Below are positions 23,960 through 27,095 of a DNA stretch of 27,095 nt, one piece after another. Below the pieces are notes generated by a model. The model did no database searches. It saw only the letters and a program-made list of their open reading frames with translations, and was not told the origin of the DNA. Position 1 is the stretch's first letter, and every line of letters begins with the position of its first letter. Source of the stretch: a virus (taxonomy: Duplodnaviria > Heunggongvirae > Uroviricota > Caudoviricetes); IMG/VR virus record IMGVR_UViG_2537562194_000033; one strand, given 5' to 3'. Both the position numbers and the translations under genes were made by a program.

Positions 23960-24149
23960 CTAAAGTCCCAGCCACAACAACCATGCGTCGCGGCGTTCTT
24001 TCGGTTGCTCAAAAAACGCTTTGCGCATGCCTTCGTTAAATGCTGGCAGATATACCCAGTTTTCTGATGCACGCGTCTTTACTGAACCTGGTTTCACAAA
24101 GTCAATTGTCGGTAGCTTTGCTGCGTCAATCATGGTTCTGACTGTGGAT
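23960..24149 (-). pseudogene. cox: cox (excisionase/early repressor) 3' fragment, separated from its 5' part by an IS insertion
   Basis: Joining 25560-25460 to 24149-23960 and removing one copy of the GAT duplication gives an intact 95-aa ORF: MSESELGGFIQVAPYPLEAVPYQLFAKMIGRKESTVRTMIDAAKLPTIDFVKPGSVKTRASENWVYLPAFNEGMRKAFFEQPKERRDAWLLWLGL. It resembles P2 Cox as recalled. Confidence 0.8.
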
Positions 24150-24203
24150 TGAACCGCCCCGGAAATCCTGGAGACTAAACTCCCTGAGAAAGAGGTAAAC
24201 AGG

Positions 24204-24530
24204 ATGACTAAAAATACTCGTTTTTCCCCCGAAGTCCGTCAGCGGGCGATTCGTATGGTTCTGGAAAGTCAGGATGAATATGACTCACAGTGGGCGGCAA
24301 TTTGTTCCATTGCCCCAAAGATTGGCTGTACGCCGGAGACTCTGCGTGTCTGGGTTCGCCAGCATGAGCGGGATACCGGGGGCGGTGATGGTGGGCTCAC
24401 CAGCGCTGAACGTCAGCGTCTGAAAGAGCTGGAACGTGAAAATCGTGAACTGCGCCGCAGTAACGATATCCTTCGCCAGGCTTCCGCTTATTTTGCGAAG
24501 GCGGAGTTCGACCGCCTCTGGAAAAAATGA
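24204..24530 (+). CDS. IS3-family transposase OrfA (HTH and leucine-zipper part)
   Basis: 108 aa. The -1 frame relationship to orfB at the A6 run (24522-24527) fits the programmed frameshift typical of IS3-family elements. Confidence 0.9.
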
Positions 24531-25417
24531 TGCCACTGCTGGATAAGCTGCGTGAGCAGTACGGGGTCGGACCGGTATGCAGCGAACTGCATATTGCCCC
24601 GTCAACGTATTACCATTGTCAGCAACAGCGACATCATCCGGATAAACGCAGTGCCCGTGCGCAGCACGACGACTGGCTGAAGAGAGAGATACAGCGCGTA
24701 TACGATGAAAATCATCAGGTGTACGGTGTGCGTAAAGTCTGGCGTCAGTTGTTACGGGAAGGAATCAGGGTGGCCAGATGTACAGTGGCACGTCTCATGG
24801 CGGTTATGGGACTTGCCGGTGTTCTCCGGGGTAAAAAGGTCCGTACGACCATCAGCCGGAAAGCCGTTGCCGCAGGCGACCGCGTAAACCGTCAGTTCGT
24901 GGCAGAACGACCTGACCAGCTGTGGGTGGCTGATTTTACTTACGTCAGCACATGGCAGGGCTTCGTCTATGTGGCGTTTATCATTGATGTGTTTGCCGGA
25001 TACATCGTGGGGTGGCGGGTCTCATCGTCTATGGAAACGACATTCGTGCTGGATGCGCTGGAGCAGGCGTTGTGGGCCCGTCGTCCGTCTGGCACCATCC
25101 ATCACAGCGATAAAGGCTCTCAGTATGTGTCACTGGCCTATACGGAGCGACTAAAAGAAGCCGGATTACTGGCATCAACAGGGAGTACAGGCGACTCGTA
25201 TGACAACGCGATGGCTGAGAGCATCAATGGTCTTTACAAAGCGGAGGTAATACACCGTAAGAGCTGGAAAAACCGTGCAGAAGTGGAACTGGCCACACTA
25301 ACGTGGGTGGACTGGTATAACAATCGACGATTGCTGGGAAGGCTGGGCCATACTCCTCCGGCAGAAGCAGAAAAAGCTTATTATGCTTCCATCGGAAACG
25401 ATGATCTGGCAGCCTGA
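24527..25417 (+). CDS. IS3-family transposase OrfB (DDE catalytic domain)
   Basis: 296 aa with an rve-type integrase core (WVADFTYV...HSDKGSQY...[14 protein letters not shown]). Confidence 0.9.
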
Positions 25418-25459
25418 GTTCACAGATAAAACACTCTCCAGGAAACCCGGGGCGGTTCA

Positions 25460-25560
25460 GATTCCTTGCGGCCGATCATCTTGGCGAATAGTTGATATGG
25501 CACCGCTTCAAGTGGATATGGTGCTACCTGAATGAACCCCCCAAGCTCTGATTCGCTCAT
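25460..25560 (-). pseudogene. cox: cox 5' fragment
   Basis: ATG at 25560 with GGGAG 9 nt upstream, encoding MSESELGGFIQVAPYPLEAVPYQLFAKMIGRKE up to the IS junction. Confidence 0.8.
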
Positions 25561-25673
25561 TGTGGTAATCTCCCTAATTCGTTCGAATGGCTCAAAATGG
25601 CTTATATCGGCTTATTTGAGTGTTTTTATGTTTGTGCCCGATGTGGCATGTTGCGATGGAGGATATGCCCGAT
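25561..25673. promoter_or_regulatory. early control region between cox and C (face-to-face promoters and operator repeats)
   Basis: 113-bp gap between divergently oriented cox and C. Contains 15-bp direct repeats TGCCCGAT(G/A)TGGCAT at 25635-25649 and 25666-25680, plus shorter AATGGCT and GGCTTAT direct repeats. P2 C repressor is known to bind direct repeats. Promoter hexamers were not assigned. Confidence 0.5.
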
Positions 25674-25994
25674 ATGGCATCTTTGTCAAGCATGGGTGAA
25701 AAATTTCGCCTGATTCGTGAAGCAGAAGGTATGACCCGCCAGGAGTTTGCGGATTGTGTTGGGCTGCCTTATGGGACGGTAACTAACTATGAGGTGAGGG
25801 GGAAGCAAGTAACAGAGGGTGCCTTACTTAAGGTTACGAAACACCCTAAATTTAAGAAGTATGCTTATTGGTTATCAACAGATGAAACGATGCCGGAGGT
25901 CGGGCAAATTTCTCCGGCTCTCTCTCTTGATGGTTCCTGCAATTCGGAGGGAGATCGCGTTTCAACCGAAACAATCCAAAAATTATCCCGCTGA
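25674..25994 (+). CDS. C: immunity repressor C
   Basis: Start set to ATG at 25674 (MASLSSMGEKFRLIREAEGMTRQEFADCVGLPYGT...), with GGAGGA 10 nt upstream. The HTH region and PKFKKYAYWL / GQISPAL blocks resemble P2 C as recalled. The track ORF begins at an upstream GTG. Confidence 0.8.
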   Translation: MASLSSMGEKFRLIREAEGMTRQEFADCVGLPYGTVTNYEVRGKQVTEGALLKVTKHPKFKKYAYWLSTDETMPEVGQISPALSLDGSCNSEGDRVSTETIQKLSR

Positions 25995-26090: not shown

Positions 26091-27095
26091 ATGTCGATTA
26101 AGAAGCTCGAAGATGGTCGTTATTTGCTGGACATCAGGCCGAACGGACGCAAGGGAAAGCGCGTGCGTAAGGTATTTGACAAAAAATCGGTAGCGGTGGC
26201 CACTGAACGCTACATCATGGCGAACGCTGAAAAGCGGGAATATATACAGGGCTACCGTGATCGTCGAACGCTAAATGATTTGCTTGAGTTGTGGTGGATG
26301 TATCACGGCCAGCACAGGCGTAAGGCGGAAGAAGACCGAAAACAACTGCGCAACATAATCAATGAGCTTGGCGCTGATATGCAGGCTGTGGATCTTGATA
26401 AGCTGAAAATTATCGCGTGGCGTTCTCAAAAGATAGCTGAAGGATTGAAACCGTCATCTGCTAACAGGTACATGAATCGGTTATCCGGAATGTTTACCGT
26501 GCTGAAAAAAATAGGTCTTTGGGATGCAGAACATCCAGTAAGGGGAATTTCTATTCTTTATGTATCTCCACGAGAAATGGCGTTCCTGTCACAGAAGGAA
26601 GTGGCGCTATTGCTCGATACACTGGAGGGCGACTACTGGCGTGTTGCGCTTTTGTGTTTAAGCACAGGGGCGCGCTGGAGTGAAGCTTGTAAGCTTCGTG
26701 GTGAACAGATAGTTCATAACCGTGTAACGTTTCTTGAAACCAAAAATGGCCGGAAGAGAACAGTGCCAATTTCGCAGGCAGTTTGTGAGGCGATCAAAAC
26801 CAGAGAAACAGGCGGCTTGTTTGAGGTGAAGTACCGGGAATTCTGCCTGGCGCTGAAAAGAGTTAAGCCCGATTTACCAAAAGGCCAGGCTGCACATGTG
26901 CTGCGGCATACGTTCGCCAGCCATTTTGTGATGAACGGAGGAAACATTATTGCGCTTCAGAAGATTCTTGGTCACGCAACCATTCAGCAAACAATGGCAT
27001 ATGCGCATTTTGCACCGGATTACCTGCAGGATGCGGTGGCCCTTAATCCGCTGAAAGGTGGCGTAAGTGTCCACGCAGTGTCCACGGGGGATTAA
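26091..27095 (+). CDS. int: tyrosine integrase (P2 Int family)
   Basis: ATG at 26091 (MSIKKLEDGRYLLDIRPNGRKGKR...); the track ORF starts at an upstream TTG. C-terminal catalytic motifs HVLRHTFASHF and ILGH...YAHF. The stop codon TAA is the last 3 nt of the window, so the att site lies just outside. Confidence 0.9.
   Translation: MSIKKLEDGRYLLDIRPNGRKGKRVRKVFDKKSVAVATERYIMANAEKREYIQGYRDRRTLNDLLELWWMYHGQHRRKAEEDRKQLRNIINELGADMQAVDLDKLKIIAWRSQKIAEGLKPSSANRYMNRLSGMFTVLKKIGLWDAEHPVRGISILYVSPREMAFLSQKEVALLLDTLEGDYWRVALLCLSTGARWSEACKLRGEQIVHNRVTFLETKNGRKRTVPISQAVCEAIKTRETGGLFEVKYREFCLALKRVKPDLPKGQAAHVLRHTFASHFVMNGGNIIALQKILGHATIQQTMAYAHFAPDYLQDAVALNPLKGGVSVHAVSTGD

What the first reader, a model, noticed from the sequence alone, without database searches (positions are those of the whole stretch)
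25599..25680. Direct-repeat operator candidates in the C/cox switch region, one overlapping the C start codon
Two 15-bp direct repeats TGCCCGAT(G/A)TGGCAT are spaced 31 bp apart; the second covers the ATG of C. P2-type repressors bind direct rather than inverted repeats. With cox destroyed, this switch is presumably fixed in the lysogenic state.
Basis: partly seen in the sequence, partly recalled or inferred. Interest (0 to 1): 0.35.

Follow-up and report, generated by a model that had tools for sequence, protein, structure and literature searches.

The report
Repressor binding sites of a P2-like prophage
Two copies of a 15-base sequence sit on either side of the -10 box of the early lytic promoter of a P2-like E. 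coli prophage, and are almost certainly the sites where its immunity repressor C binds: an ordinary, uncharacterised member of a well-known kind of phage switch.

Summary
TGCCCGATGTGGCAT (25635-25649) and TGCCCGATATGGCAT (25666-25680) lie 31 bp apart, and the second contains the conserved C start codon (25674). They flank the -10 box of a strong minus-strand promoter, TTGACA-N18-TATCCT, which is Pe for cox. This is the layout of the P2 and WPhi operators.

The adjacent gene encodes a clear P2 C homologue (PDB 2xcj, E 4e-16). Heteroimmune relatives with 97-98% identical Cox but 42-48% identical C carry different repeat pairs at the same place. Within this immunity type the 30 core positions never vary, whereas 19 of 110 flanking positions do. 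The repeats are therefore very probably the C operator. No binding experiment exists.

cox is indeed split by an IS1203 element (24150-25459, GAT duplication).

One nuance: each repeat has a weak inner dyad, (A)TGCC-N6-GGCA(T). Across 30 immunity types of the family such dyads are strongly enriched at the operator position. This suggests one symmetric C dimer per site rather than simple reading of direct repeats.

Verdict: a new member of a known kind, of low to moderate interest.

The parts
25666..25680 (.). Proximal operator repeat (equivalent of P2 O1), TGCCCGATATGGCAT. It fills the spacer between the -35 and -10 of Pe (about -27 to -13) and contains the C start codon. Read as the 16-mer 25665-25680 it is ATGCC-N6-GGCAT, with 6 of 8 dyad pairs.
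25635..25649 (.). Distal operator repeat (equivalent of P2 O2), TGCCCGATGTGGCAT, about +5 to +19 of Pe. It has 5 of 8 dyad pairs, or 6 of 8 in alleles with A at 25634.
25684..25689 (-). Pe -35 hexamer TTGACA. It lies inside codons 4-6 of C.
25660..25665 (-). Pe -10 hexamer TATCCT. Its complement is part of the C Shine-Dalgarno sequence. The inferred Pe start is near 25653.
25658..25662 (+). GGAGG, the Shine-Dalgarno sequence of C. The GGAG is invariant in six related phages.
25674..25994 (+). C immunity repressor gene (106 aa), P2 C family.
26091..27095 (+). Integrase gene, the second gene of the lysogenic operon.
25462..25560 (-). 5' fragment of cox (about the first 33-34 codons).
24150..25459 (+). 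IS1203 (IS3 family, 1310 bp) inserted in cox, flanked by the GAT target duplication at 24147-24149 and 25460-25462.
23960..24149 (-). 3' fragment of cox.
25589..25618 (+). Three tandem 10-bp units, GGCTCAAAAT, GGCTTATATC and GGCTTATTTG. These are candidate Cox boxes in the region where Pc is expected. They are conserved with cox across heteroimmune relatives.

Best explanation
The two repeats are the operator of the early lytic promoter Pe of a P2-like (Xuanwuvirus, P88_4B11-type) prophage, and the prophage's own C repressor binds them.

Shown by sequence:
- A strong sigma-70 promoter reads leftward into cox: TTGACA 25689-84, an 18-nt spacer, then TATCCT 25665-60.
- One repeat fills the promoter spacer. 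The other covers about +5 to +19.
- Their centres are 31 bp apart, which is three helical turns.
- The next gene is a P2 C homologue followed by int.

Inferred mechanism: one symmetric C dimer sits on each 15-16-bp site, so four monomers bind in all, on the same face of the DNA. They bind cooperatively and bend the DNA, occluding the -10 and the start site so that RNA polymerase cannot use Pe. The weak dyad (A)TGCC-N6-GGCA(T) in each site would let both recognition helices of a dimer make similar contacts.

The C Shine-Dalgarno sequence, the C start codon and C codons 4-6 overlap the Pe -10, the proximal site and the Pe -35 respectively. The weak, unlocated Pc promoter must therefore transcribe through both sites. 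By analogy with P2, low C should help Pc by silencing the convergent Pe, and high C should hinder it.

In this copy cox is split by IS1203. The anti-repressor and excision arm of the switch is gone, and the prophage is probably locked in.
For: - Repeats exist and exceed chance.
- Pe scores 12.1 bits in a promoter matrix scan, against at most 4.7 for any plus-strand site in the region.
- C matches solved P2 C (2l49/2xcj) at E 4.4e-16 over residues 6-88. It keeps the family's conserved Arg13, Arg20, Tyr37, Glu38 and Trp64 equivalents and matches phrog_147 at 3e-29.
- The annotated P2 record has the same order: -35, O1, -10, O2. The literature gives centre-to-centre distances of 22, 26 and 34 bp for P2, Hy dis and WPhi, with sites flanking the -10 in P2 and WPhi (PMC1904268, PMC2995052).
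- Natural swap: Chuche and Shae_phiSM have Cox 98% and 97% identical to the intact relative P88_4B11, but C only 42-48% identical. They carry different repeat pairs at the same place, while the cox-side half of the spacer stays conserved.
- Of 35 related switch regions scanned, most show the same layout with their own repeat, 22-35 bp apart. Switches with the same recognition helix (window and L025) share TGCC..GGCA sites, and different helices go with different sites.
- Within this immunity type 0 of 30 core positions vary against 19 of 110 outside, p 0.007. Spacing is 31 or 32 bp.
- The same switch is at least 99% identical in 214 of 5426 complete E. coli genomes.
Against: - There are no binding, footprint or reporter data for this immunity type.
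- Pe and its start site are predicted, not mapped. The -10 (TATCCT) is non-consensus, and some alleles have TGTCCT.
- Pc could not be located, so the autoregulation part rests on analogy with P2.
- The inner dyad of the window's own sites is not significant alone: 6/8 pairs with p 0.10, and 5/8 with p 0.29. The base just outside each core varies.
- The proximal core also overlaps the C translation start, which could by itself explain part of its conservation.
Confidence: 0.85

Rival explanations
1. C does bind the repeats, but exactly as proposed for P2. [quoted passage not shown] On this view the inner dyad is accidental.
For: This is the published model for P2 C (PMC2995052). The window's dyad is statistically weak. 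The L026/L027/L029 type and the WPhi distal site show no dyad.
Against: Dyads are enriched at the operator position across the family: 9-10 of 30 distal sites reach p<0.05, Fisher 2e-7 to 5e-7. Adjacent control windows show none, Fisher 0.99. The positions invariant among the four sites read by the same recognition helix (window and L025) are the symmetric TG.C / G.CA arms plus the central AT. A 15-16-bp site fits one HTH dimer.
Confidence: 0.3
2. The repeats are Cox binding sites (cox boxes) rather than C sites.
For: Cox proteins also bind direct repeats in the Pe-Pc region (PMC3936717 and PMC7498355 abstracts).
Against: Phages with nearly identical Cox (97-98%) have different repeats here. 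A separate set of 10-bp-periodic GGCTYA units at 25589-25618 is conserved with cox and resembles the P2 box region in position.
Confidence: 0.03
3. The repeat is a chance or duplication relic without function, or acts as RNA structure in the C leader rather than as a protein binding site.
For: Short repeats do occur by chance. The arms of the two copies can pair in RNA.
Against: Shuffle p is about 0.001. The cores are invariant within the type. Heteroimmune phages have their own pairs at the same place. The RNA fold z-score is only -0.63, and there is no Rfam match.
Confidence: 0.03
4. The repeats are integrase arm-type or host-factor sites.
For: Repeat 1 contains TGTGG, which resembles the start of the P2-type Int arm consensus tgTGGaCa (PMC3448106).
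Against: Repeat 2 reads TATGG, and neither copy fits the full consensus. In P2 the Int arm sites lie at attP, on the far side of int from C and cox.
Confidence: 0.01

Closest known systems
Phage WPhi C repressor and its O1/O2 operator
   Same: It is a P2-family C protein. It has two direct repeats flanking the -10 of Pe, about three helical turns apart (34 bp, against 31 here), with the proximal site in the promoter spacer (PMC1904263, PMC1904268).
   Different: The site sequence differs (TATTGGTGAC), and the described half-site is 10 bp against 15-18 bp here. WPhi has been tested by EMSA, SPR and reporters; this one has not.
Phage P2 C repressor and O1/O2 (PDB 2xcj)
   Same: The repressor is homologous (E 4e-16). 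The order -35, O1, -10, O2 is the same, the C start codon abuts the promoter, and C-int is divergent from cox.
   Different: P2 repeats are 8 bp (GTTTAGAT) and 22 bp apart, and are described as non-palindromic. Here they are 15 bp, 31 bp apart, with a partial inner dyad.
Controller protein C.Esp1396I and classical 434 / P22 c2 operators
   Same: These are HTH dimers that each bind a 14-18-bp dyad-symmetric site. C.Esp1396I binds two such sites arranged in direct orientation, cooperatively (PMC2995052). P2 C superimposes on P22 c2 with similar helix spacing.
   Different: They are not homologous at family level. The dyad here is imperfect (5-6 of 8 pairs), and spacing between sites is 31 bp against 15 bp for C.Esp1396I.
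Phage 186 CI / pR-pL switch
   Same: It is a convergent-promoter lysis-lysogeny switch of a P2-like phage with an Apl/Cox counterpart.
   Different: 186 CI is an unrelated, twice larger repressor with a different operator organisation, and the 186-type switch carries an additional cII gene (PMC3448106).

Membership tests
P2-type C repressor / Pe operator switch | Small (about 100 aa) repressor homologous to P2 C, with HTH helices 2-3 and the conserved Arg13, Tyr37, Glu38 and Trp64 equivalents | tested here: met
   PDB 2l49/2xcj at E 4.4e-16 over residues 6-88. R15, R22, Y39, E40 and W66 are invariant in the alignment (residue roles from PMC2995052). phrog_147 at 2.9e-29.
P2-type C repressor / Pe operator switch | [quoted passage not shown] | tested here: met
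   C 25674-25994, int 26091-27095, cox on the opposite strand starting at 25560. Intact Cox of the relative matches Pfam Phage_Cox at 1.3e-22.
P2-type C repressor / Pe operator switch | Two directly repeated half-sites at the early promoter | tested here: met
   14/15 identical copies 31 bp apart. Shuffle p is about 0.001.
P2-type C repressor / Pe operator switch | Half-sites flank the -10 (P2, WPhi) or the -35 (Hy dis) of Pe, 2 to 3 helical turns apart | tested here: met
   TTGACA-N18-TATCCT on the minus strand, with one copy in the spacer and one at about +5 to +19, 31 bp apart. Compare the P2 record and PMC1904268.
P2-type C repressor / Pe operator switch | Operator sequence is specific to the immunity class and co-varies with C | tested here: met
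   Heteroimmune relatives carry their own pairs at the same place. The same recognition helix goes with the same site. Cox stays constant while the sites differ.
P2-type C repressor / Pe operator switch | C protein binds the half-sites and represses Pe | not testable with these tools
   This needs EMSA or footprinting and a Pe reporter.
P2-type C repressor / Pe operator switch | A convergent, weaker Pc promoter whose transcript overlaps that of Pe | tested here: inconclusive
   No plus-strand promoter scores above 4.7 bits, against 12.1 for Pe. The positional analogue of the P2 Pc -10 is TATATC at 25603-08. P2 Pc is also described as weak.
P2-type C repressor / Pe operator switch | Half-sites are non-palindromic (as stated for P2) | tested here: inconclusive
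   The window sites have 6/8 and 5/8 dyad pairs, with p 0.10 and 0.29. Family-wide, dyads are enriched at this position: Fisher 2e-7, controls 0.99.
Cox boxes (rival assignment of the two repeats) | Sites co-vary with the Cox protein and recur at about 10-bp periodicity | tested here: not met
   The repeats differ between phages with 97-98% identical Cox. Their spacing is 31 bp. The 10-bp-periodic units are elsewhere, at 25589-25618.

The most novel reading that the evidence does not exclude
Each 'direct repeat' is really a 16-bp pseudo-palindromic site for one symmetric C dimer, and this holds across most of the P2 C family. In 30 immunity types the distal site is often a 7/8 or 8/8 palindrome, for example GGTACGTATACGTACC, ATGTCTAATTAGACAT and TACTCATATATGAGTA. 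[quoted passage not shown]
Probability: 0.5. Interest if true: 0.45.

Novelty: new member of a known kind. Interest (0 to 1): 0.27.

Why it matters
It assigns the operator, promoter and start codon of a common E. coli prophage immunity type. That type is present in about 4% of complete genomes, including O111 STEC and ST131, and nobody has characterised it.

It also gives a clean example of how tightly a phage switch can be packed. The -10 of Pe is the complement of the C ribosome binding site, the proximal operator holds the C start codon, and the -35 lies in C codons 4-6.

The wider comparison suggests that P2-family repressors usually read pairs of dyad-symmetric sites. That bears on a structural puzzle raised when the P2 C structure was solved, and it can be tested with simple arm mutations. 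None of this changes the known logic of P2-type switches.

Tried and rejected
- Single-sequence AlphaFold2 model of C: mean pLDDT 38, unusable, so no fold search was run.
- Locating Pc by consensus and matrix scans: no convincing site.
- Finding out whether this type equals immunity classes VIII-X (Nilsson 2011) or I-VII (Karlsson 2006). The 2006 paper is not held and the 2011 supplement is not held. UTI89 PhiECO5 (class IX) was fetched and is a different type. Classes VIII and X could not be checked.
- The genome-contig scan gave only 6 loci. The viral-contig scan with the alignment was far more useful.
- RNA-structure reading: fold z-score -0.63 and no Rfam hit.
- Additional operator copies elsewhere in the window: none beyond chance.
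- Int arm-site reading: rejected on sequence and location.

Full report
**What is there.** The window ends in the regulatory corner of a P2-like prophage. On the + strand lie C (25674-25994, 106 aa) and int (26091-27095). On the - strand cox starts at 25560. The similarity extends to 18 nt. Nothing with fewer than 3 mismatches to the motif occurs elsewhere in the 27 kb. Only 3 of 3000 dinucleotide-preserving shuffles of the 140-nt region give a 14/15 direct match.

**Origin.** The junction sequence occurs in three complete E. coli genomes, all 100% identical: 95NR1, 95JB1 and O111:H8 strain 8B. The prophage sits next to pdxB. Without the insertion sequence, the switch region is 100% identical to Xuanwuvirus P88_4B11 and 99% to phage PhiR44_2. 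It is at least 99% identical in 214 of 5426 complete E. coli genomes.

**cox.** Comparison with P88_4B11 shows a 1310-bp element at 24150-25459, flanked by a GAT duplication at 24147-49 and 25460-62. RefSeq annotates it as IS1203. It splits cox within codon 34. The intact Cox of the relative matches Pfam Phage_Cox at 1.3e-22.

**Promoter context.**
- The only strong sigma-70-like site in the region is on the minus strand: TTGACA (25689-84), an 18-nt spacer, then TATCCT (25665-60). It scores 12.1 bits in a simple matrix scan, against at most 4.7 for any plus-strand candidate. It reads into cox and is therefore Pe.
- The proximal repeat fills the spacer, at about -27 to -13. With an inferred start near 25653, the distal repeat covers about +5 to +19.
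- The annotated P2 record shows the same order: -35, O1, -10, O2. There the C start codon overlaps the -35.
- Published values for the three characterised operators are 8 bp/22 bp (P2), 8 bp/26 bp (P2 Hy dis) and 10 bp/34 bp (WPhi). Sites flank the -10 in P2 and WPhi (PMC1904268; PMC2995052).
- The present case, 15 bp/31 bp flanking the -10, fits that series. It is closest to WPhi.

**Overlapping signals.** The GGAG of the C Shine-Dalgarno sequence (25658-61) and ATG 25674 are invariant in six related phages. PGAP also starts C at 25674. The complement of the Shine-Dalgarno sequence supplies the Pe -10, the C start codon lies in the proximal repeat, and the Pe -35 lies in C codons 4-6. TATCCT recurs as the -10 in at least eight other immunity types, consistent with this double constraint.

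**The repressor.**
- C matches the solved P2 C protein (2l49/2xcj) at E 4.4e-16 without gaps over residues 6-88.
- It matches phrog_147 at 2.9e-29.
- Its matches to generic HTH Pfam models are only sub-threshold.
- Residues equivalent to P2 Arg13, Arg20, Tyr37, Glu38 and Trp64 are invariant in an alignment of nine family members. These residues are structurally or functionally important in P2 C (PMC2995052).

**Comparative evidence that the repeats belong to C.**
1. *Natural swap.* Phages Chuche and Shae_phiSM have Cox proteins 98% and 97% identical to P88_4B11, and a conserved cox-side half of the spacer. Their C proteins are only 42-48% identical. At the positions of the two repeats they carry different pairs: TTTCTCATATGAGAAA / TTTCTAAGTTGAGAAA in Chuche, and GGATCATATGTGATC / GGTTACATGTGATAC in Shae. 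The repeats therefore track C, not Cox.
2. *Family-wide layout.* Of 35 switch regions of the family collected from IMG/VR, GTDB genomes, P2 and WPhi, most have TTGACA, a 16-18-nt spacer filled by a proximal site, a -10, and then a distal copy 22-35 bp from the first, most often 31-34 bp.
3. *Recognition helix.* L025 has the same recognition-helix region as the window (LPYGTVTNYEVRGK). Its sites are ATGTCATATCGGGCAT and TTGCCATATGTGGCAT, variants of the window's sites. Other helix sequences go with other sites.
4. *Polymorphism.* Among 11 distinct alleles of this immunity type, 0 of 30 core positions vary against 19 of 110 other positions (one-sided Fisher p 0.007). Changes cluster directly beside the cores, and the spacing is 31 or 32 bp.

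**Inner dyad.**
- Read in the Pe sense, the sites are ATGCCATATCGGGCAT and ATGCCACATCGGGCAC. That is (A)TGCC-N6-GGCA(T), with 6 and 5 of 8 symmetric pairs.
- Alone this is not significant: p 0.10 and 0.29.
- Across 30 immunity types, however, the best 16-18-mer palindrome in the distal-operator window beats shuffles far more often than expected. In one run 10 of 30 sites reach p<0.05 (Fisher 2e-7), and 9 of 30 in a repeat run (4.6e-7).
- Two adjacent control windows show nothing: 2/30 and 1/29, Fisher 0.99.
- Examples are GGTACGTATACGTACC (L087), ATGTCTAATTAGACAT (L028), TACTCATATATGAGTA (L039) and GGATTACATGTAATCC (L107). UTI89 PhiECO5 has TTCTTCACCACATGGTGAAGAA.
- Some types show no dyad: L026/27/29 and the WPhi distal site.
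- Among the four sites read by the window-type helix, the invariant positions are the symmetric TG.C / G.CA arms and the central AT.
- P2 C is a symmetric dimer that resembles palindrome binders. Its authors modelled one dimer per half-site and noted the paradox that the P2 repeats are not palindromic (PMC2995052). The data here suggest that in most relatives the half-site is a pseudo-palindrome of the right size for one dimer. No paper in the held library says this.

**Mechanism proposed.** Two C dimers bind, one per site, three helical turns apart on one face of the DNA. They cover the -10 and the start site of Pe and block RNA polymerase. This is inferred. Pc could not be located, and P2 Pc is likewise described as weak (PMC1904263). 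The positional analogue of the P2 Pc -10 is TATATC at 25603-08. It lies within three 10-bp tandem units, GGCTCAAAAT / GGCTTATATC / GGCTTATTTG (25589-25618). These units are conserved with cox and resemble the box region of P2 in position and period; they are candidate Cox boxes. Pc must read through both C sites. As stated for P2 (PMC3448106), C would therefore stimulate its own synthesis at low levels and limit it at high levels, here presumably by silencing convergent Pe and then by blocking Pc transcription. That is inference by analogy.

**State of this copy.** IS1203 sits inside cox in the orientation opposite to the early operon, so excision and probably early-gene expression are lost. 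'Locked as a prophage' is a fair but untested inference.

**Rivals.**
- *Cox sites:* excluded by the swap argument.
- *Chance:* excluded by shuffles, conservation and comparison with relatives.
- *RNA structure:* the fold z-score is -0.63 and there is no Rfam hit.
- *Int arm sites:* wrong sequence and wrong place.
- *P2-style asymmetric reading:* this is the real open alternative. It concerns how C reads each site, symmetric dimer or P2-style asymmetric contact, and needs arm-specific mutations.

**Verdict.** The finding is an uncharacterised member of the P2/WPhi kind of C operator. I could not determine whether it equals one of the tentatively named classes VIII or X; class IX differs. Interest is low to moderate. 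The family-wide dyad pattern is the part worth a specialist's attention.

Noticed in passing
L024 1174-1809; L085 877-1512; also L086 and L103 (L053 is the same contig as L024): A 211-aa 'tandem C' protein. A Chuche-type C domain is fused in frame to a second complete C domain, window-type (92% identical) in L024 and Shae-type in L085. It gives two phrog_147 stretches at E 4.5e-55. The switch upstream carries only Chuche-type operators, so the second domain has no cognate site in cis. It might confer immunity against a second, heteroimmune phage type.
   Followed up: partly
window 25589-25618: Three tandem 10-bp units, GGCTCAAAAT / GGCTTATATC / GGCTTATTTG. They are conserved together with cox in heteroimmune relatives and lie where P2 has its Cox-bound Pc region. 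They are candidate Cox boxes, now orphaned because cox is broken.
   Followed up: partly
window 24150-25459: IS1203 (1310 bp, GAT target duplication) lies inside cox. This exact junction occurs in only 3 of 5426 complete E. coli genomes (95NR1, 95JB1, O111:H8 8B), while the switch itself is in more than 200.
   Followed up: yes
window 25658-25665 and the Pe regions of L026-L029, L065, L094, L106, L122: The Pe -10 TATCCT is the complement of the C Shine-Dalgarno sequence (AGGA). The same non-consensus hexamer recurs in many immunity types, suggesting a shared double constraint.
   Followed up: partly
window 25620-25692: The C reading frame is open upstream, with in-frame GTG 25620 and ATG 25641, 25656 and 25665, and a further in-frame ATG downstream at 25692. 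Public records start the same gene at different codons: P88_4B11 at the equivalent of 25692, PhiR44_2 at 25656, and PGAP at 25674. Only 25674 is conserved across relatives.
   Followed up: yes
L012 (-35 TTGATA), L007 and L014 (-10 TGTCCT), equivalent to window 25685 and 25664: Some prophage alleles of this immunity type carry changes in the Pe hexamers that should weaken the lytic promoter. The operator cores stay intact.
   Followed up: no
30 immunity types (L025-L118, P2 L033, WPhi L120, UTI89 L122): Operator half-sites of the P2 C family are often 16-18-bp palindromes or near-palindromes. The enrichment is specific to the operator position (Fisher 2e-7, against 0.99 in control windows).
   Followed up: yes
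L104, L109, L114, L116: A divergent subgroup of the P2 C family shows a different layout. Inverted arms TTGCA / TGCAA bracket the Pe -10, with a separate palindrome (AGTAATTACT in L104) downstream.
   Followed up: no
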